57,269 nt of DNA from a virus. Its lineage: Duplodnaviria; Caudoviricetes. Shown here in pieces: positions 33,481 to 38,926 of this stretch. The notes under the pieces were generated by a model. It made no database searches. It was given only the letters and a program-made list of their open reading frames with translations, and had not been told where the DNA came from. Each line of letters opens with the position of its first letter. The first letter of the stretch is position 1. Location of the stretch: positions 1-57,269 of IMG/VR virus record IMGVR_UViG_3300025120_000060; one strand, given 5' to 3'. Both the position numbers and the translations under genes were made by a program.

Positions 33481-35393
33481 AAGAACATAATTGGATACTA
33501 CCAGAGTATAAGGAAGGAAAGATAGAATCTTACATGAGTAATCAAATACCTATGTTTCAACCACCAAGCGAGTGGTTGCCGCCAGAAAACATTCCTAATT
33601 TAGATGACGCTAAAGAAATAGCTGTTGATTTAGAAACAATGGACCCTGACATAAAAACAAAAGGCCCTGGTTGGGCTACCGGGAACGGTGCAATCATTGG
33701 TGTAGCCATGGCAGTAGAAGGTTGGAAGGGTTACTTTCCTTTACGACATCCTGGTGGTGGTAACTTTGATGAGAAAATATTTTTTAGAAATTTTAAAAAG
33801 ATGATGTCTTTACCCAATAGAAAGATTTTTCATAATGCTATGTATGATGTTGGTTGGCTTAAACATCAAGAGATACCTGTCAACGGCACGTTGATTGATA
33901 CAATGATAGCAGCTCAAATCATAGACGAGAATCGTATGGGTTACTCTCTTAACGCTGTTGCTAAAGACTATTTGGGTGAAAAGAAATCAGAAGCTTTACT
34001 TTATGAGGCTGCAAAAGAGTGGGGTGTAGACCCTAAAGGCGAGATGTATAAGCTCCCCGCACAGTTTGTAGGACCTTATGCTGAACAGGATGCCGAGCTC
34101 ACACTGAAGTTGTGGGGTCGCCTGGAGTCAGAAATATATAAACAAGATTTAGTTTCCATATTCTCATTAGAGACGAACATTCTTCCGGCTTTAATTGAGA
34201 TGAAGTGGAGAGGTGTCCGTGTTGACACCAGTCGTGCTGCTCAGATAAAAGAGAAACTCCTTCAAGAAGAGAATCTTCTTCTTTCCTCTATCCAAAACAT
34301 CTCAGGGGTTTCTGTTGATTTGTGGGCAGCACGTTCAGTTGCGAAAGCATTTGACTCTATGGACATACCTTACGAAAAGACTGCAAAGTCGAAGGAACCT
34401 AAGTTCGATAAGAATTTTTTAGGAACTCACCCAAGTAAGTTGGCTAACTTAATTGTTCAGGCTCGTGAGATAAATAAAGCCAGGACAACTTTTATTGACA
34501 CAATTATGAAGCATCAACACAAAGGTAGAATACACGCTGAGATACATCAAATGAGATCTGACCAGGGCGGAACTGTTACAGGTAGGTTCTCAATGAGTAA
34601 CCCTAACCTTCAACAGATACCTGCAAGAAACGCAAAGATTGGACCAATGATAAGAAGTTTATTTATACCTGAAGAAGGAGCGAAGTGGGGTTGCTTTGAT
34701 TACAACCAACAAGAACCACGGCTCGTGGCTCACTACGCTGCTATAACCAGGAATGGTTTAGAAGGTGCTGATAAAGTTATTGACGGATATAATAGTGACC
34801 TGGACTTCCATGGCACTGTTGCAGAGATGGCTAACATTGATCGTAAAACTGCAAAGACAATTAACCTGGGGCTGTTCTATGGAATGGGTAAAGGTAAATT
34901 AAAAAGTCAGCTTGGGTTAAACGATGAACAGGCCGATGCTTTGTTTAAAACTTATCACAGTCGTGTGCCTTTTGTTAAACAGCTCACGGAACAGGCCTCT
35001 AAGTCTGCACAAGAGAATGGTTTTGTTAGAACTTTACTGGGACGTAAGTGTCGTTTTGATTTATGGGAGCCCGCAAGCTTCGGTATTCATAAGCCATTGC
35101 AACGTGAACAAGCGACCAGGGAACATGGAAAAAATATTAAACGTGCGTTTACATACAAAGCTTTGAATAGATTGATACAAGGTTCAGCAGCTGACATGAC
35201 AAAGAAAGCAATTTTAGATTTATATAAAGAAGGAATAGTTCCACACATACAAGTGCATGATGAATTAGATTGTTCGTTTGAATCAGAAATACATGCAAAG
35301 AAAATTGAAAAGCAAATGGTAGAGTGTGTTGAGTTAAAGGTACCTGTTAAAGTTGATTGTGAAGTTGGCTCTAGTTGGGGCGATATTAAATAA
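33477..35393 (+). CDS. polA: DNA polymerase family A with 3'-5' exonuclease
   Basis: DLET, HNAMYD, YAEQDA, TGRFS...PNLQQIP, DYNQQEPR, AKTINLGLFYG, IQGSAAD, QVHDE. Confidence 0.95.
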   Translation: MKEHNWILPEYKEGKIESYMSNQIPMFQPPSEWLPPENIPNLDDAKEIAVDLETMDPDIKTKGPGWATGNGAIIGVAMAVEGWKGYFPLRHPGGGNFDEKIFFRNFKKMMSLPNRKIFHNAMYDVGWLKHQEIPVNGTLIDTMIAAQIIDENRMGYSLNAVAKDYLGEKKSEALLYEAAKEWGVDPKGEMYKLPAQFVGPYAEQDAELTLKLWGRLESEIYKQDLVSIFSLETNILPALIEMKWRGVRVDTSRAAQIKEKLLQEENLLLSSIQNISGVSVDLWAARSVAKAFDSMDIPYEKTAKSKEPKFDKNFLGTHPSKLANLIVQAREINKARTTFIDTIMKHQHKGRIHAEIHQMRSDQGGTVTGRFSMSNPNLQQIPARNAKIGPMIRSLFIPEEGAKWGCFDYNQQEPRLVAHYAAITRNGLEGADKVIDGYNSDLDFHGTVAEMANIDRKTAKTINLGLFYGMGKGKLKSQLGLNDEQADALFKTYHSRVPFVKQLTEQASKSAQENGFVRTLLGRKCRFDLWEPASFGIHKPLQREQATREHGKNIKRAFTYKALNRLIQGSAADMTKKAILDLYKEGIVPHIQVHDELDCSFESEIHAKKIEKQMVECVELKVPVKVDCEVGSSWGDIK

Positions 35394-35507
35394 ACCGCGT
35401 AAAATAACGAAAATAAAACAGCTTTTAAGAGCCATACAGGGGTGTCTTTTATATGCTCCTGTATGATTGCATTCAGGTAAAAATAACAATTAATATCTTT
35501 TTAGGAG

Positions 35508-35537
35508 TTGACATAATTAGTTGAGATATTATATACT
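35508..35537 (+). promoter_or_regulatory. Sigma70-like promoter upstream of the RHH / RAMP-like / array operon
   Basis: TTGACA 35508-35513; TATACT 35532-35537. Confidence 0.7.
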
Positions 35538-35695
35538 TACCATAGAAATAAAGAAAGGAGTTCAACATGGAATATACAATACCAAGTTGGGTAGAACTTA
35601 TATTAATAGACAGCGAAGGGAGCGACGATGATGATTAGTATTATTATCGGATGCGTTATAGCCATTCTAATTGTAAATCATTTGGGGTGGATATA

Positions 35696-35848
35696 ATGAC
35701 AGACATATCAAGGTACAAGTCTGTAGCTATTAAAAAAGATAGTTACAAAAAACTAAAAGGCATGGCAGATCAAGATTACAGATCAGTGGCAGGCTTTATA
35801 GAATACTTAATAGACAAAGAAATAGAGGAGAGAAGAAATGCCAAGTAA
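35696..35848 (+). CDS. Ribbon-helix-helix (CopG/Arc-like) DNA-binding protein
   Basis: YKSVAI beta strand then LKGMA...RSVAGFIEYLI; start refined to ATG 35696. Confidence 0.65.
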   Translation: MTDISRYKSVAIKKDSYKKLKGMADQDYRSVAGFIEYLIDKEIEERRNAK

Positions 35849-36464
35849 GAAAGAACCAGAAAACATTACAGTCCCAGGCGTGGTGCTACAAGACTGTGTA
35901 ATAACACTCAAAGGTGATTCACCTTTAATATGCAACAAATGGTCAGAGAAGGCCAAACAAGAAATAAGAGATAAGCAGATGAAGATAGCTAAAGCTGCGG
36001 GTAGACAAGCTAAGGATCCTGAAAAATGTTTTAGAGATTCTTTATATCAAATGCCAAATGGTAAAGATTACGGCTTCCCGGCTATTGCTTTTAAAGCTGC
36101 TGCTGTGAATGCTTGTTCTCACATTGATGGTCTTACAAAGGTCTCGGCTCGTGGATCATTTCACATTCCGTGTGACTTAATTAAGATCATTGGTAAACCA
36201 GTCATGAGAGAAGACATGGTGCGTGTTGGTATGGGTGCCGCTGATCTTAGATACAGAGGTGAGTTTACTAAATGGGAAGCTGAAGTTCCTGTAAGATACA
36301 ACGGAAATGCCTGGTCAATTGAACAATTGATTAACGTTTTTAACGTAGCGGGGTTTGCGTCTGGTGTTGGTGAATGGAGACCGCAAAAGAACGGTAACTT
36401 TGGAATGTTCAAAGTAACTAATGTAACAAAAATCGAAAGAAAGAAAGAGGTAAAAGTTGCGTAG
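35838..36464 (+). CDS. RAMP/Cas7-like RNA-binding protein (Vipr-like effector)
   Basis: ITLKGDSPLI first strand; FPAIAFKAA equivalent to the RAMP P.ss.KG helix; C-terminal G-rich loop AGFASGVGEWRPQKNGNFGMFKV. Confidence 0.75.
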   Translation: MPSKKEPENITVPGVVLQDCVITLKGDSPLICNKWSEKAKQEIRDKQMKIAKAAGRQAKDPEKCFRDSLYQMPNGKDYGFPAIAFKAAAVNACSHIDGLTKVSARGSFHIPCDLIKIIGKPVMREDMVRVGMGAADLRYRGEFTKWEAEVPVRYNGNAWSIEQLINVFNVAGFASGVGEWRPQKNGNFGMFKVTNVTKIERKKEVKVA

Positions 36465-36966
36465 AAAAATAATACAGTCCTATCAATTTAGGGGCAGCAA
36501 GACAACAAAGTATTCAGTGGACGCTCAAGTTGTTGGAGAAGAACTTGAAGCGATAACTAACAAGCACGGGACACTCAATCCACACGTTGTGGTGAAGGCG
36601 GCAGAAAGAAAGAGTTCGCCGCTTCACAAGTGCTTCACGTGGGATGATGCTTCTGCTGCAGATAAGCATCGGTTGCACGAAGCAAGGATGCTCATTGGTT
36701 CTGTCATGGTCGTCACGCAGCATGTAGACGAACCGGTGCGTGCTTTCCATAGTGTAAAGGTGACTACGTCGAACGGAGATGACGACACATCTGAGCGTAG
36801 TTACGTTCCATTGGATATTGCGTTGAGCGATGATGATTATCGAAGGCAGATCTTAGAACAGGCTGCCAGAGATCTTCATACTTGGAGAAGAAAATATGGG
36901 GAACTAAGAGAACTTCATAAATTTTTCTCTGAGGCTCAGCGTATCATTGATAAGTATGCAGCTTAA
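36457..36966 (+). CDS. Partner protein of the RAMP-like gene, function unknown
   Basis: LNPHVVV..A...SPLHKCFTWDD..AA..HRL.EAR.LI motif; overlaps the RAMP-like stop. Confidence 0.7.
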   Translation: MRRKIIQSYQFRGSKTTKYSVDAQVVGEELEAITNKHGTLNPHVVVKAAERKSSPLHKCFTWDDASAADKHRLHEARMLIGSVMVVTQHVDEPVRAFHSVKVTTSNGDDDTSERSYVPLDIALSDDDYRRQILEQAARDLHTWRRKYGELRELHKFFSEAQRIIDKYAA

Positions 36967-37127
36967 CAGGCATACTAGATGTAGTGGTGTTGCAAAAACG
37001 CAACACCACATATAGAGGAAGGATTAATTAATTATGAAAAAATATACTTATAAACATATCATAGAAATTTTATTAAAAAAAGAGGGTTGGATTAGAGTTC
37101 CTCTTTATTTACCTACGAGGGTTATCG

Positions 37128-37334
37128 ATGGCAAGTAGTGATGAATACTATGAAGAGAAGGTAAACGAGTTACGTGAATTGTATGACCATCTCGAAAATG
37201 CTTTGATAGCAGTCAGTAATGCTTCTCGATGTAAAGGTCGATTGCATTTACAGAAAGATCAACAAGATGAAATGAATACCATGATATTGGACCTTGAAGA
37301 TCTGTTGGCTACAGTCGATGACATAGAACCTTAG
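37128..37334 (+). CDS. Small acidic helical protein
   Basis: GAGG RBS; its TAG stop overlaps the first base of the array. Confidence 0.6.
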   Translation: MASSDEYYEEKVNELRELYDHLENALIAVSNASRCKGRLHLQKDQQDEMNTMILDLEDLLATVDDIEP

Positions 37335-37799
37335 GCAGGCTTAGCGAGGCTAGTTATGGCCCGGTGAGGTGAGTTTTTGGTGAGGCAGGCAAGGTCAGGT
37401 TTTGCGGGGTAAGGTGCGGTGTGGAGCGGTGTGTCAAGGCAGGATAGGTAAGGCGAGCATTGTTCAGGATCGGTTTGATTGCGGCAGGCGTGGTAAGTTA
37501 GGGACAGGACAGGTAGGGCCTGGATTGGTGTGGATTGGCGAGGCAGGCGAGGTGAGGTTTGTTGCGTTTTGATATGTTGAGTTTAGTTGAGGCAGGCGTG
37601 TTGAGGTCGGGTACGTTCTGGTGGTGTAAGGTGTGGTGATACAGGAGTGGTAAGTTTGAGTGAGGTATGGTCGGGTTTGTTGCGGCAGGCGGGGTGAGGT
37701 GCGTTCAGGTGAGGAGTGTTATTGGTATGTTGAGGCAGGCCAGGTATGTCCAGGTTTGGTATGATCCGGACGGGTAAGGCAAGTTAAGGTAAGGCCGGA
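37334..37799 (+). ncRNA. Array of nine GGCAGG-delimited units of (GGY-NN)n pentamers; putative guide-RNA array
   Basis: Delimiters at 37334, 37384, 37438, 37483, 37542, 37591, 37640 (TACAGG), 37684, 37734 and 37793 (GGCCGG); 5-nt periodicity; no ORF in track. Confidence 0.8.
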
Positions 37800-37810
37800 A
37801 AGGAGATAGC

Positions 37811-37951
37811 ATGGAAAAACTCATGACTGGTAGCCGGGCAATGAAAATTGTCAAGGATTACATAATTAAGGATATTGCCGACGAGGACGTTACAGTAGCG
37901 GTTCTTGCGTTGGAGAAATATATAAAAAGTTTGGAAAAGAGTGTTAAGTGA
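37811..37951 (+). CDS. Small hypothetical protein (46 aa)
   Basis: AAGGAG RBS immediately after the array; hand translation MEKLMTGSRAMKIVK... Confidence 0.6.
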   Translation: MEKLMTGSRAMKIVKDYIIKDIADEDVTVAVLALEKYIKSLEKSVK

Positions 37952-38074
37952 GATAGTCTATCACTCGGATTATCAATCCCACCCTAATCCAAAGGGTCGA
38001 CACCTGGTCTTTAGCCTCTTAACCCAGGTACGTGGTGTGACTGATGGAGAGACATCAACCAAGAAAGGAAAGAG

Positions 38075-38242
38075 ATGAACAAGACTATAGACAAACTCGT
38101 TAAGACAAAAAGATCAAAAGAAGTAGACAAGATAGAAGAGATGAAGTTAAAAAATATTATTGAAGTTGCTGTAAGAAAACGAGCTCCAGAGTGGTTAAAA
38201 GAACTTATCAAGGCCGACGACGCACGGATCACGAAACATTAA
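38075..38242 (+). CDS. Small hypothetical protein (55 aa)
   Basis: AAGGA RBS; MNKTIDKLVKTK... Confidence 0.55.
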   Translation: MNKTIDKLVKTKRSKEVDKIEEMKLKNIIEVAVRKRAPEWLKELIKADDARITKH

Positions 38243-38319
38243 AATGTCAATAGTAAAGAGTATTTGCTGTTGGGATTCTAATTTTATATATTGATCGTTC
38301 GCGCAAAATGGAGGTCAAA

Positions 38320-38451
38320 ATGGAAGAACTACAGGAAAAATATGAAGGTGCTTTGGAGGCGATAGCCTACCTGCACAATGAACTACTGGCTGTAAAGCAT
38401 TGTCAATGTGATGATGAAACAGTCGAAACTGAAGAGGATAGCGGGGCCTAG
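38320..38451 (+). CDS. Small acidic protein (43 aa)
   Basis: GGAGG RBS; own promoter-like TTGCTG-N17-TATATT. Confidence 0.6.
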   Translation: MEELQEKYEGALEAIAYLHNELLAVKHCQCDDETVETEEDSGA

Positions 38452-38667
38452 TTATAGGCCTTCGTGTCCTTGCTCAAAGTACTTATTCTTTAAGTGCCTC
38501 TCCCAAAAATCTTTGCCGTTGGCAACAATAGTATTCCATTCACGATGATTAAATCGTTCTGTAGAACCATTCTTGTACTCAACCTCGTAAACCATTTCAT
38601 GGCCCACTGAAGAATCTGTTTGTAGCTCATACACTTTAAGGTTTTTAATTATATCTTTTAGCTTCAT
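38452..38667 (-). CDS. Hypothetical protein
   Basis: Clean ORF in the minus-strand mini-operon. Confidence 0.65.
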   Translation of the reverse strand: MKLKDIIKNLKVYELQTDSSVGHEMVYEVEYKNGSTERFNHREWNTIVANGKDFWERHLKNKYFEQGHEGL

Positions 38668-38926
38668 TGTAAGTTAAATACCTTACTTCTTTTACCATAC
38701 CTTTGGGAATAATTGCAACCCTTCCTCCCTCGTCAAAACCATCATCACACCAGTCAGCCATCAGGGACATTTCTTCTTCGTCGTCTTTTACTAGCCAACC
38801 TATAGAAAAACAGCCGGCAGCGGTCTTTTTAATTATATCTTTGTATGCTGCCCAACCGGAAAAAGGTTCAGTCGCATCTTTCCATCGGACTATCACAATC
38901 GGACAAGTCTTCAGGTTAAATTTCAT
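38645..38926 (-). CDS. Conserved phage hypothetical protein
   Basis: VRWKDA...W...SIGWL...IPKGMV motif. Confidence 0.7.
   Translation of the reverse strand: MKFNLKTCPIVIVRWKDATEPFSGWAAYKDIIKKTAAGCFSIGWLVKDDEEEMSLMADWCDDGFDEGGRVAIIPKGMVKEVRYLTYNEAKRYN

What the first reader, a model, noticed from the sequence alone, without database searches (positions are those of the whole stretch)
37334..37799. Grammar of the array: nine units, fixed triplet plus variable dinucleotide
Seen: delimiter starts are spaced 50, 54, 45, 59, 49, 49, 44, 50 and 59 nt apart. That is 5n+4, except three units with one extra base. Example unit 2 (37388): GGC AA GGT CA GGT TT TGC GG GGT AA GGT GC GGT GT GGA GC GGT GT GTC AA GGC-A. 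Triplets are mostly GGT/GGC/GTT/GGA, while the dinucleotides differ in every unit. NN strings: U1 TT GA TA AT CC GA GA (TTT) GA; U2 AA CA TT GG AA GC GT GC GT AA; U3 TA AA GA TT CA TC TT (TGC); U4 GT AA AG CA CA AG CT TT GT TT GA; U5 GA GA TT GC TT AT GA TA GA; U6 GT GA CG AC CT GG AA GT GA; U7 GT AA TG GA AT CG TT GC; U8 GG GA GC CA GA GT (ATT) AT GA; U9 CA AT CA TT AT CC CG AA AA AA AA. Inference: GGC-A-GGC breaks the phase and marks processing sites, giving nine ~45-60-nt guides, each carrying 16-22 informative nucleotides. A slippage-derived satellite would homogenise NN; here it stays diverse.
Basis: partly seen in the sequence, partly recalled or inferred. Interest (0 to 1): 0.85.

Follow-up and report, generated by a model that had tools for sequence, protein, structure and literature searches.

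The report
Phage VIPR guide-RNA array, staggered type
This G-rich stretch of a marine phage is an array of nine short guide RNAs of the recently described VIPR system, sitting beside its Cas7-like protein gene, and several guides appear aimed at conserved motifs of genes carried by rival phages.

Summary
Window 37334-37792 is nine units of GGY-NN pentamers, each introduced by a 4-nt GGCA step (spacing 5n+4). Period-5 signal: z=16, unique in the 57-kb phage record.

It is a known kind: a VIPR locus (bioRxiv 10.64898/2026.04.26.720920). Just upstream lie a Vipr (Cas7-like RAMP) gene, 35838-36464, which matches PDB 'SUSP1 Vipr protein' (profile E 3.7e-8), and a conserved 169-aa partner gene. Units abut with no structured tail, matching that paper's 'staggered arrays', which it did not confirm by RNA sequencing.

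Under the published 1-nt-skip rule, 3 of 6 guides scanned give in-frame, wobble-aligned matches in other phages:
- U2: C5 DNA-methyltransferase motif KQ[IM]GNAV[AP]V (at least 119 loci).
- U9: HIT motif HIHLIPR[KY]K (4 of 5 hits).
- U6: an SPFH lipoprotein (2 of 2 hits).

U4 and U5 gave no convincing target and U8 was inconclusive. Among orthologous units of 90%-related phages, NN varies less than triplet positions 2-3 (17/234 vs 36/234 columns).

Cleavage at the delimiters and transcription are not shown. Verdict: new member of a known kind, moderate interest. Sibling notes of this scan on the same stretch had proposed the RAMP link and the HIT reading.

The parts
35508..35537 (+). Sigma-70-like promoter candidate (TTGACA-18-TATACT) upstream of the RHH-vipr-partner operon
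   Evidence: 11 of 12 consensus matches, the best site in 35300-38400. The total number of sites in the region is no more than in shuffles, so this is only a candidate.
35651..35848 (+). 65-aa ribbon-helix-helix (Arc/CopG-like) gene, overlapping the vipr start by 11 nt; lineage-specific
   Evidence: phrog_3180 E 1.3e-5; the best Pfam match, RHH_5, at 24.1 bits is below its 26-bit cut-off. tblastn hits only in the 10 close relatives L002-L011 and in none of the 120 pattern-found loci.
35838..36464 (+). vipr: 208-aa Cas7-like RAMP protein, the predicted vrRNA-binding filament subunit
   Evidence: PDB 36pp_D 'SUSP1 Vipr protein': E 8.3e-4 alone and 3.7e-8 with profile A1. AF2 model pLDDT 79.5. 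The listed Foldseek matches with E <= 1.9e-4 are all chains of type III Csm, type VII or Cas7-11 CRISPR effector complexes. 7110 homologs at E<=1e-5. phrog_4652.
36457..36966 (+). 169-aa conserved partner gene (candidate vap), overlapping the vipr stop; motif PLH..F.WDD..AA...R..AR
   Evidence: phrog_15946. A homolog is present in 39 of 68 array-bearing loci against 1 of 52 loci without an array. AF2 pLDDT 87.3. No PDB relative by sequence or by fold.
37128..37334 (+). 68-aa ORF whose stop codon overlaps the first delimiter; lineage-specific, function unknown
   Evidence: No family match. Homologs only in the 10 close relatives.
37334..37383 (+). Unit U1 (50 nt; GGCA + 9 repeats, one of them 6 nt)
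   Evidence: No ortholog at the 0.78 cluster threshold in the fetched relatives; best ungapped match 0.71, L009. Not scanned for targets: the longest regular run is 7 NN.
37384..37437 (+). Unit U2 (54 nt; 10 NN): reads K-Q-[FL]-G-N-A-V-A-V-[KN]; predicted target is the C-terminal motif of C5 cytosine DNA methyltransferases
   Evidence: The degenerate 9-NN pattern hit at least 119 viral loci, with 119 of 119 testable sites open in the guide frame. The window variant scores 19/20 at best (L221) and has a 9-NN perfect match in a methylase-like context in L234. The exact 10-NN pattern gave 0 hits.
37438..37482 (+). Unit U3 (45 nt; 7 regular NN + one 6-nt repeat)
   Evidence: Unique to the window among relatives. 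Not scanned.
37483..37541 (+). Unit U4 (59 nt; 11 NN)
   Evidence: Unique to the window. The exact skip-1 pattern gave 0 hits in viral, metagenome and genome collections.
37542..37590 (+). Unit U5 (49 nt; 9 NN)
   Evidence: Unique to the window. 0 viral hits. The 41 genome hits are spread over unrelated proteins.
37591..37639 (+). Unit U6 (49 nt; 9 NN): reads V-E-R-T-L-G-N-V-x; predicted target is the N-terminal region of an SPFH/Band-7 lipoprotein
   Evidence: 2 of 2 viral hits are in frame in homologous Band_7 proteins. The window variant matches 17/18 and the relatives' variant 18/18.
37640..37683 (+). Unit U7 (44 nt; 8 NN), with a mutated delimiter TACAGGAG
   Evidence: The NN string is identical in all 10 members of its ortholog group, while five triplet or delimiter positions vary. 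Not scanned: only 16 specified bases.
37684..37733 (+). Unit U8 (50 nt; one 6-nt repeat); its 5' half is shared with two other unit families in relatives
   Evidence: groups 7, 8 and 10. The metagenome scan of the bulge parse gave 87 hits in many unrelated proteins, which is inconclusive.
37734..37792 (+). Unit U9 (59 nt; 11 NN): the first 9 NN read H-I-H-L-I-P-R-K-K; predicted target is the histidine-triad motif of HIT-family genes
   Evidence: 4 of 5 viral hits are in frame in PF01230 HIT proteins. 18/18 on L204 and L206, 19/22 over all 11 NN. Contigs in two RNA-library runs skip exactly these 59 nt.
37793..37810 (+). Array end GGCCGGAAAGGAG, which contains the ribosome-binding site of the next gene (46-aa ORF 37811-37951)
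   Evidence: The same GGCCGGAAAGG end follows the last unit in relatives L005 and L007 (group 12).

Best explanation
The stretch is the guide-RNA (vrRNA) array of a VIPR system (Viral Interference Programmable Repeat) carried by a marine phage. The operon RHH - vipr - 169-aa partner - 68-aa ORF is transcribed rightwards into the array.

Taken from the published SUSP1 system: one Vipr protomer (a Cas7-like RAMP) binds each pentamer, buries the G-G-Y bases and presents the two N bases. The NN pairs read double-stranded DNA while skipping every third target base. A guide therefore reads codon positions 1-2 of a gene and ignores wobble positions, and binding represses transcription.

Specific to this locus: the array is of the tail-less 'staggered' kind. 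A 4-nt GGCA step, equivalent to a 1-nt overlap of two pentamer registers, shifts the phase by -1 every 8-11 pentamers and so separates nine guides of 7-11 NN.

Shown here:
- the grammar of the array;
- the Vipr homology and fold;
- the genome-wide association of such arrays with vipr, on the same strand and downstream;
- conservation of NN within orthologous units;
- in-frame, wobble-aligned matches of U2, U6 and U9 to conserved motifs of C5 DNA methyltransferase, SPFH lipoprotein and HIT genes in other phages;
- absence of self-targets.

Inferred, not shown:
- that the array is transcribed and cut, or functionally divided, at the GGCA steps;
- that Vipr of this clade follows the same 1-nt-skip rule biochemically;
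- that the outcome is silencing of rival phages' accessory genes during co-infection.
For: 1. Protein. ORF 35838-36464 matches PDB 36pp_D 'SUSP1 Vipr protein' (E 8.3e-4; profile E 3.7e-8). The aligned G-loop reads GVGEWRP against SUSP1 GVGDWRP. E179, R181 and P182 are invariant and W180 is at least 90% conserved in 38 homologs, and the Arg aligned to SUSP1 R138 (window R140) is invariant. These are the residues the cryo-EM paper names as G1/G2/Y3 contacts. In the fold search of the AF2 model, the listed matches with E <= 1.9e-4 are all chains of type III Csm, type VII or Cas7-11 effector complexes.

2. RNA grammar. Entropy is 0.34/1.00/1.27 bits at the triplet against 1.91/1.75 at NN. The same holds in 3297 pentamers of 355 units from 77 loci. 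Spacing is 5n+4.

3. Association. A DNA-only pattern scan returned 120 loci, of which 68 have period-5 arrays. 42 of those 68 carry a Vipr homolog within the fetched DNA, against 1 of the 52 without arrays. The G-rich strand is the vipr sense strand in 42 of 42, and the array lies downstream in 40 of 42.

4. Selection. In 13 ortholog groups of units from the window and 11 relatives, variable columns by pentamer position 1-5 are 6/121, 16/117, 20/117, 11/117 and 6/117. NN against triplet positions 2-3 gives Fisher p=0.008.

5. Targets under the published skip-1 rule.
- U2-family pattern: at least 119 loci and 120 sites, with 119 of 119 testable sites open in frame. Peptides are KQMGNAVAV (75) and KQIGNAVPV (39). 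The three I checked are PF00145 methylases.
- U9: 4 of 5 hits in PF01230 HIT genes on HIHLIPR[YK]K.
- U6: 2 of 2 hits in PF01145 proteins.
- Guide variants track target variants. Window U9 (AA) matches the Lys-codon targets and the relatives' U9 (TA) the Tyr-codon targets. A relatives' U2 variant matches KQIGNAVPVE 20/20 at 6 sites.

6. No self-target. The best self match is 14/18, and the window and its relatives have no HIT, C5-methylase or SPFH homolog.

7. No RNA structure (z=+0.78). That fits a protein-coated guide without a tail.
Against: - Three of the six guides scanned gave no convincing target. U4 had 0 hits in three collections. U5 had 0 viral hits and 41 scattered genome hits. U8 had 87 metagenome hits spread over many unrelated proteins.
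- The window's exact 10-NN U2 pattern had 0 hits. Its own U2 and U6 variants are one mismatch from the common targets, and the last two NN of U9 do not match.
- Hits inside one protein family are not independent, so each supported guide is essentially one event plus its reading frame.
The chance rate is judged only from the 0-1 unrelated hits of the other patterns.
- In my small local test (3.5 Mb), skip-1 gave only a modest excess over shuffled guides (150 vs 98 sites at 2 mismatches), and two of its three perfect hits were circular.
- There is no direct evidence of transcription or of RNA ends. The RNA-library data are low-depth contigs that may be DNA carry-over.
- 31% of triplets are not GGY, and 11 of 80 have A at position 3. 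The cryo-EM paper says the Y pocket excludes purines in SUSP1 Vipr.
- Homology to SUSP1 Vipr is detected by sequence only over the C-terminal ~66 residues.
- The partner protein could not be equated with any published vap.
Confidence: 0.9

Rival explanations
1. It is a VIPR array, but the GGCA steps are not processing sites. The array would work as one long RNA, or a few, coated by a continuous or kinked Vipr filament, with the 4-nt steps only resetting the reading register between guide segments.
For: No RNA ends were observed. There is no hairpin, ribozyme or tail that could direct cleavage (Rfam 0 hits). Units abut with a 1-nt overlap, so both neighbours cannot keep the shared base. The seventh delimiter is mutated to TACA in the window but the -1 step is kept. 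The discovery paper did not confirm staggered arrays by sRNA-seq.
Against: The legend of fig. S18 of the discovery paper draws boundaries of 'individual processed vrRNAs' at these positions. Full-length target matches stop at unit ends (20/20 for a 10-NN unit and 18/18 for 9-NN units). Whole units are gained, lost and reordered between relatives, and a 59-nt unit is skipped in contigs of two runs. These points show modular units, but not cleavage.
Confidence: 0.25
2. It is a G-rich structural or regulatory element without guide function, for example a run of two-tier G-quadruplexes (GG-N3 repeats) or an R-loop-prone zone on the non-template strand, or a microsatellite made by slippage.
For: G is 203 of 466 bases with strong GC skew. 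GGNNN repeats fit a G2N3 quadruplex pattern in principle (my inference, not tested).
Against: Slippage would homogenise units, yet TRF finds nothing and NN entropy is 1.75-1.9 bits. A composition-only element would not explain four things: the strict association and co-orientation with vipr, the stronger conservation of NN than of triplet positions 2-3 in orthologs, the -1 steps that are ten times commoner than +1 steps (742 vs 73), or the in-frame matches to protein motifs.
Confidence: 0.03
3. It is a protein sponge or assembly RNA in the manner of TRAP-binding leaders (triplets separated by 2-nt spacers wrapped on an oligomer). It would titrate or scaffold Vipr or another protein, with NN free to drift and carrying no information.
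For: The fixed-triplet plus 2-nt-spacer grammar resembles TRAP sites (recalled knowledge, no call). Three of six guides have no identified target.
Against: NN is not drifting freely. It is more conserved than triplet positions 2-3 among orthologous units, and U7's NN string is identical in 10 phages while its triplets vary. NN strings of three units spell conserved protein motifs in frame.
Confidence: 0.03

Closest known systems
VIPR systems, 'staggered vrRNA arrays' (bioRxiv 10.64898/2026.04.26.720920, fig. S18 legend; I read Results, Methods sections 18 and 20, and passages)
   Same: A Vipr RAMP gene plus one conserved accessory gene in a phage. GGY/NN pentamers. Neighbouring guides share one nucleotide, which gives the 5n+4 spacing seen here. 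Targets are in other phages with the skipped base on the codon wobble position. No self-targeting.
   Different: That paper does not report sRNA-seq support for this architecture. The type (I-VII) of the present locus could not be assigned because the data files and figures are not available to me. The triplets here are looser (GTT 15 and GGA 10 of 80). The predicted targets are family-wide catalytic or conserved motifs of accessory genes rather than a satellite or lysogeny regulators.
Type II VIPR of Escherichia phage SUSP1 (same preprint; cryo-EM in 10.64898/2026.04.26.720927, sections 5-6 read; competition study 10.64898/2026.10.15.759431, abstract and passages read)
   Same: One protomer per repeat (published). 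The G-loop [D/E]-W-R and the thumb Arg are conserved in the window protein. Guides of 9-16 repeats. The wobble-aligned targeting logic aimed at catalytic cores.
   Different: SUSP1 vrRNAs are about 100 nt, each with an invariant ~40-nt 3' tail that forms a pseudoknot. Here units are 44-59 nt, abut directly and show no predicted structure. The window Vipr is only distantly related: sequence similarity is detectable over the C-terminal third, and tblastn of the window protein against cultured phages at E<=1e-3 returned only Mycobacterium, Gordonia and cyanophage records. The partner gene has no detectable similarity to solved structures.
Class 1 CRISPR crRNA-Cas7 backbone
   Same: A RAMP-fold subunit polymerises on a guide RNA. 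A thumb interrupts pairing periodically. Arrays of many guides lie next to the protein gene. The listed fold matches are chains of Csm, type VII or Cas7-11 effector complexes.
   Different: There are no long direct repeats, no spacers of contiguous sequence and no other cas genes. The period is 5 nt with only 2 read bases, instead of 6 nt with 5 read bases (the latter recalled).
TRAP-binding RNA leaders (recalled, not tested)
   Same: Fixed triplets separated by two variable bases, about 10 per unit.
   Different: No TRAP-like gene is present. The triplet is GGY, not GAG/UAG. The spacers here carry conserved information.

Membership tests
VIPR system | A Vipr protein (minimal RAMP: RRM core, G-loop, thumb) encoded at the locus | tested here: met
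   PDB 36pp_D SUSP1 Vipr E 8.3e-4 and 3.7e-8 with a profile. AF2 pLDDT 79.5. The listed Foldseek matches are chains of Csm, type VII or Cas7-11 effector complexes, E from 1.8e-6.
VIPR system | RNA-contact residues named in the cryo-EM study (G-loop D177-W178-R179, thumb R138, beta-sheet H17) | tested here: inconclusive
   The G-loop aligns as E179-W180-R181 and the thumb Arg as R140. E179, R181 and R140 are invariant and W180 is at least 90% conserved in 38 homologs. H17 and K33 lie in the N-terminal part, which HMMER did not align, so they were not checked.
VIPR system | vrRNA of at least 4 tandem YNNGG/GGYNN repeats with conserved GGY and hypervariable NN | tested here: met
   80 regular pentamers in 9 units. 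Entropy is 0.34/1.00/1.27 against 1.91/1.75 bits. z=16 against shuffles. Caveat: 31% of triplets are GTT, GGA or other.
VIPR system | An accessory vap gene next to vipr | tested here: inconclusive
   A 169-aa gene overlaps the vipr stop and co-occurs with arrays in 39 of 68 loci.
VIPR system | NN strings match DNA targets with one skipped base per NN, with the skip on the codon wobble, in other mobile elements | tested here: met
   Met for 3 of 6 guides scanned: U2, U6 and U9. Not met for U4 and U5. U8 is inconclusive. U1, U3 and U7 were not scanned.
VIPR system | No self-targeting at 80% or more NN match | tested here: met
   The best self matches are 11/14 to 14/18, all below 80%.
VIPR system | vrRNAs expressed as discrete small RNAs that co-purify with Vipr | not testable with these tools
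   Only assembled contigs from three marine RNA libraries cover parts of vipr, the partner gene and the 3' part of the array at depth 2-3. Contigs show neither ends nor strand and may be DNA carry-over.
VIPR type II (SUSP1-like) | An invariant structured 3' tail (pseudoknot) after each repeat tract | tested here: not met
   Units abut at GGCA with no intervening sequence. The fold energy is no better than shuffles, z=+0.78. So it is not filed as type II.
VIPR staggered array | Successive vrRNAs overlap by 1 nt, so the end of one marks the start of the next | tested here: met
   Six of nine spacings are 5n+4, and GGCAG/GGCNN share one G. In 79 array regions elsewhere there are 742 four-nt steps (555 of them GGCA) against 73 six-nt steps, mostly with 7-12 pentamers between steps.
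CRISPR array | Direct repeats of roughly 24-48 nt alternating with unique spacers, plus cas genes (repeat size recalled) | tested here: not met
   The only constant element is 7 nt. TRF finds no repeat. PADLOC finds no defence-system protein among the four locus proteins tested.
Rfam RNA families | A match at gathering score to any curated family | tested here: not met
   0 matches in the whole window.

The most novel reading that the evidence does not exclude
In tail-less staggered arrays the -1 register step (GGCA) may itself be the guide boundary. It would end one Vipr filament and seed the next without any RNA structure, and perhaps without cleavage.

This marine phage lineage would then use such compact arrays for family-level interference. 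Single guides read invariant codon positions of catalytic or conserved motifs (C5 methyltransferase C-terminal motif, histidine triad, SPFH). One guide could thereby silence that gene family in very many unrelated rival phages, for instance stripping a competitor of its anti-restriction methylase.
Probability: 0.35. Interest if true: 0.6.

Novelty: new member of a known kind. Interest (0 to 1): 0.42.

Why it matters
VIPR is a months-old discovery, and its experiments rest on a few enterobacterial and Pseudomonas systems with tailed vrRNAs.

This locus shows the untested staggered architecture in an uncultured marine phage. A simple DNA pattern recovers the same architecture in at least 68 viral contigs and in cultured Mycobacterium and Gordonia phages, which offers tractable models.

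The predicted targets widen the picture of what such guides are aimed at. They are not one satellite or one repressor but conserved motifs of widespread accessory genes. If confirmed, that means one 50-nt guide can recognise a whole protein family at the DNA level.

For annotation, it also shows that G-rich period-5 intergenic tracts are sometimes called as genes, and should instead be read as guide arrays. In Gordonia phage Pipp, CDS 43 lies on the array.

Tried and rejected
- Similarity to deposited phages: blastn of 36400-38700 found no match.
- Rfam at gathering thresholds: nothing in the window.
- TRF: nothing.
- PADLOC on four locus proteins: nothing.
- Before finding the preprint I considered a TRAP-like ring-binding RNA, a small-terminase pac site, primase-site clusters, an R-loop origin, G-quadruplex arrays and type III antitoxin RNA. 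The vipr association and the target matches displaced all of these, and none was tested further beyond what the rival explanations state.
- Local target search of the nine window guides against 3.5 Mb of fetched loci gave only noise.
- The same search with 276 distinct guides from all fetched arrays gave a modest skip-1 excess and one non-circular perfect hit, an L127 guide on an AAA_24 gene in L129. That is too little to validate the rule independently.
- Exact-pattern scans without a convincing result: U4, U2 exact 10-NN, U5 and U8.
- The scans take exact matches only, so targets with even one mismatch are invisible. U1, U3 and U7 have too few specified bases to scan.
- Partner protein: sequence and fold searches gave no assignment. 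The best fold row was a transcriptional regulator at E 0.18 and TM 0.18, which is not meaningful.
- RNA libraries: three marine metatranscriptome runs hold small shares (0.05-0.09 of words). When laid, they give 2-5 short contigs each. This shows neither transcription, strand nor ends. Parts of the stretch without cover mean nothing.
- VIPR type assignment and comparison with vap1-6 were not possible. Figures and supplementary data (data S3, S4, fig. S16-S18) are not held, and they may already contain this clade and its targets.
- I did not search for 'C5 methyltransferase' targets of VIPR beyond a word search inside one paper, which found 0 occurrences of 'methyltransferase'.
Full report
**1. 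What is there**

The window is a complete IMG/VR virus record of 57,269 bases, estimated 95% complete. DNA runs that hold it are marine or seawater metagenomes and viromes, plus one sponge metagenome.

Bases 37334-37799 are G 203, T 125, A 85, C 53. Sequence identity at lags 5, 10 and 15 is 0.46, 0.45 and 0.46, against 0.21-0.29 off phase, with a further peak at lag 49. The period-5 score is 0.224. One thousand shuffles give -0.001 +/- 0.014 (z=16), and no other 466-nt window of the genome exceeds 0.047.

The seventh (37640) is TACAGG in this phage and GGCAGG in its relatives. Each unit is a 4-nt GGCA followed by 8-11 pentamers. Six units are 5n+4 long and three have one 6-nt repeat.

Over the 80 regular pentamers, entropy is 0.34, 1.00 and 1.27 bits at the triplet and 1.91 and 1.75 bits at NN. 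TRF reports no tandem repeat, Rfam has no match, and the RNA is predicted to be no more structured than shuffles (z=+0.78).

**2. How it was identified**

Sixty-eight of them have a strong period-5 signal. In GC-rich phages the array reads (GGCNN)n with GGCA steps and unit lengths of 34-84 nt, all 5n+4 among the 355 regular units I collected.

A full-text search for pentanucleotide repeats in phages then found bioRxiv 10.64898/2026.04.26.720920. It describes VIPR as follows:
- A minimal RAMP protein (Vipr) and an accessory gene (vap).
- vrRNAs of alternating GGY/NN, whose NN bases pair with double-stranded DNA while skipping one base per repeat.
- Targets in competing phages and satellites.
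- Seven types, and among the array architectures 'staggered arrays with overlapping vrRNAs'. The legend says individual vrRNAs derive from 1-nt overlapping positions.

A 1-nt overlap of two pentamer registers is exactly the 5n+4 spacing seen here. The paper lists three further architectures and says the latter two (hammerhead-interspersed arrays and single-vrRNA systems) were confirmed by sRNA-seq. That leaves the staggered one unconfirmed.

Three further preprints exist:
- A cryo-EM study, 10.64898/2026.04.26.720927 (outline and sections 5-6 read).
- A competition study, 10.64898/2026.10.15.759431 (outline and passages).
- A language-model survey that recovers 99 period-5 clusters, 10.64898/2026.10.21.760802 (passages).

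**3. The proteins**

The 208-aa ORF 35838-36464 matches the PDB chain named 'SUSP1 Vipr protein' (E 8.3e-4 alone, 3.7e-8 with a 38-sequence profile). The alignment covers the C-terminal ~66 residues. It places GVGEWRP on SUSP1 GVGDWRP and an invariant Arg (window R140) on SUSP1 R138. These are the G-loop and thumb residues that the cryo-EM paper reports as contacting G1, G2 and Y3.

The AF2 model (pLDDT 79.5) finds type III Csm, type VII and Cas7-11 effector-complex chains as all its listed PDB matches (E from 1.8e-6). The family is large: 7110 proteins at E<=1e-5.

The 169-aa ORF 36457-36966 overlaps the vipr stop. It has a confident model (pLDDT 87.3) but no relative among solved structures by sequence or fold. 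I therefore call it a candidate vap.

Among the 120 pattern-found loci:
- Vipr is found in 42 of the 68 with arrays and in 1 of the 52 without.
- The partner is found in 39 of the 68 and in 1 of the 52.
- The G-rich strand is the vipr sense strand in 42 of 42.
- The array lies downstream of vipr in 40 of 42.
- Several of the 26 arrays without a Vipr hit sit at or near an end of the fetched locus.

The RHH gene and the 68-aa ORF occur only in the ten close relatives.

**4. Do the NN bases carry information?**

Ten relatives with ~95%-identical Vipr and ~90%-identical partner protein (L002-L011), plus L134, have arrays built from partly the same units in a different order. U2, U6, U7, U8 and U9 have orthologs. 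U1, U3, U4 and U5 have none that cluster with them.

Across the ortholog groups with more than one distinct sequence (among 13 groups with more than one member), the fraction of variable columns is 5%, 14%, 17%, 9% and 5% for pentamer positions 1-5. NN against triplet positions 2-3 is 17/234 against 36/234 (Fisher p=0.008).

NN is therefore the most diverse part between units and among the best conserved within a unit. U7's NN string is identical in all ten phages while five triplet or delimiter positions vary.

**5. Predicted targets**

I wrote each guide as NN-x-NN-x... and scanned public collections for exact matches.

- **U9.** With W at one position that differs between the window and its relatives, the pattern gave 5 viral hits. 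Four lie in frame on HIHLIPR[YK]K of PF01230 HIT proteins, with every skipped base on a wobble position. The fifth looks like chance. The window's variant fits the Lys-codon targets L204 and L206 (18/18). The relatives' variant fits the Tyr-codon targets L203 and L205 (18/18).
- **U6.** 2 hits, both in frame on VERTLGNVK of homologous SPFH/Band-7 lipoproteins. The window scores 17/18 and the relatives 18/18.
- **U2.** 119 of 119 testable sites are open in the guide frame. The encoded peptides are KQMGNAVAV (75) and KQIGNAVPV (39), with 6 others. The three proteins I checked are PF00145 C5 cytosine methylases, and the motif sits at the end of the Pfam model. From memory this is the conserved 'motif X'. 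The window's own U2 reaches 19/20 (L221) and has a perfect 9-NN match in L234. A relatives' variant has six 20/20 matches ending exactly at the unit end.

Against this:
- U4 found nothing in the viral, metagenome or genome collections.
- U5 found nothing viral, and its 41 genome hits are scattered.
- U8's 87 metagenome hits fall in many unrelated proteins.
- The exact 10-NN U2 pattern found nothing.
- I could not run shuffled-pattern controls in the collections.
- Hits within a family are one event, not many.

The window has no self-target (best 14/18) and, like its relatives, no HIT, C5-methylase or SPFH homolog.

**6. Mechanism, and what is inferred**

By homology with SUSP1, one Vipr protomer should bind each pentamer, hide GGY and present NN. 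Target pairing should skip every third base and silence transcription.

For this architecture I infer that the 4-nt GGCA step ends one guide and starts the next. In 79 array regions elsewhere, -1 steps outnumber +1 steps 742 to 73. 555 of the -1 steps are GGCA, and they mostly recur every 7-12 pentamers. These loci were chosen for having three GGCAGGC, so the count is biased towards that word.

Whether the RNA is cut there is unknown. Indirect hints of modularity:
- Units are reordered between relatives.
- Contigs in two RNA-library runs skip exactly the 59 nt of U9.
- A tRNA-Cys gene lies directly upstream of the array in two relatives.

Differences from the published model system:
- There is no 3' tail or pseudoknot.
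- The triplets are looser (GTT 15 and GGA 10 of 80), although the SUSP1 structure excludes purines at Y3.

**7. Novelty and verdict**

The kind is in print (four 2026 preprints), including the staggered layout and the wobble logic aimed at catalytic cores. This locus is a new member.

- Quantitative confirmation of the grammar.
- The NN-conservation test.
- The spread of the GGCA-stepped layout (68 viral contigs in one capped scan, plus cultured Mycobacterium and Gordonia phages).
- Concrete target predictions: C5 methylase, HIT and SPFH motifs.

Sibling notes of this scan on the same stretch had already proposed the RAMP link and the HIT reading. I reached both independently before reading them.

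Noticed in passing
L002:4880-4953 and L004:3299-3372: A tRNA-Cys(GCA) gene sits five or six bases upstream of the first array delimiter in two close relatives, but not in the window or in L003, L006, L009 and L010. It could supply a processed 5' end for the array transcript.
   Followed up: partly
window 37733-37791 (joint 37732->37792): Contigs in two marine RNA-library runs from different studies join 37732 to 37792, skipping exactly one 59-nt unit (U9). The best independent DNA holder (X2) shows loose ends at 37677 and 37736 and much higher contig depth inside the array (128-246) than beside it (15-38). This suggests many co-existing array variants that share units.
   Followed up: partly
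L457:3102-3371 (Gordonia phage Pipp, CDS 43) and L456:2093-2330 (Mycobacterium phage Saal, upstream of gene 51): Cultured actinobacteriophages carry GGCNN arrays with GGCAGGC steps next to a Vipr homolog (37-39% identity). In Pipp the array lies where a hypothetical protein gene is annotated, which is probably a miscall. In Saal the array lies upstream of vipr, not downstream.
   Followed up: partly
L079:4390-5450 (and similar ~80-kb phage contigs among L012-L081): Distant homologs of the 169-aa partner (28-30% identity) are followed by a 1-kb A-rich intergenic region. It holds several short tracts with period 5 built on CA/TA-type motifs rather than GGY, each followed by non-periodic sequence, and then a Vipr-like gene (27% identity). 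This may be a non-canonical vrRNA set of the kind mentioned in 10.64898/2026.10.21.760802.
   Followed up: partly
L127 (- strand, unit at 1170) and L129:997-1019: A guide unit of another phage's array matches an AAA_24 ATPase gene of a different viral contig at 16 of 16 NN positions, in frame and under the 1-nt-skip rule. It is the only non-circular perfect hit in my local all-against-all test.
   Followed up: partly
units starting L004:3674, L009:5126, L010:5224, L011:5224, L134:135 (group 7); window 37684, L005:1792, L007:3269 (group 8); L002:5304, L006:5136 (group 10): Three unit families share their first five NN (GG GA GC CA GA) and then diverge. Translated, the divergent parts look like variants of one peptide motif, which suggests sets of guides tracking variants of one target family, or recombination inside units.
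   Followed up: no
window 36984-37012: A perfect 10-bp hairpin (GTGGTGTTGC / GCAACACCAC) lies just after the partner gene's stop. It has no T-run and was not called a terminator. Weak promoter-like sites follow at 36947-36976 and 37034-37062.
   Followed up: no
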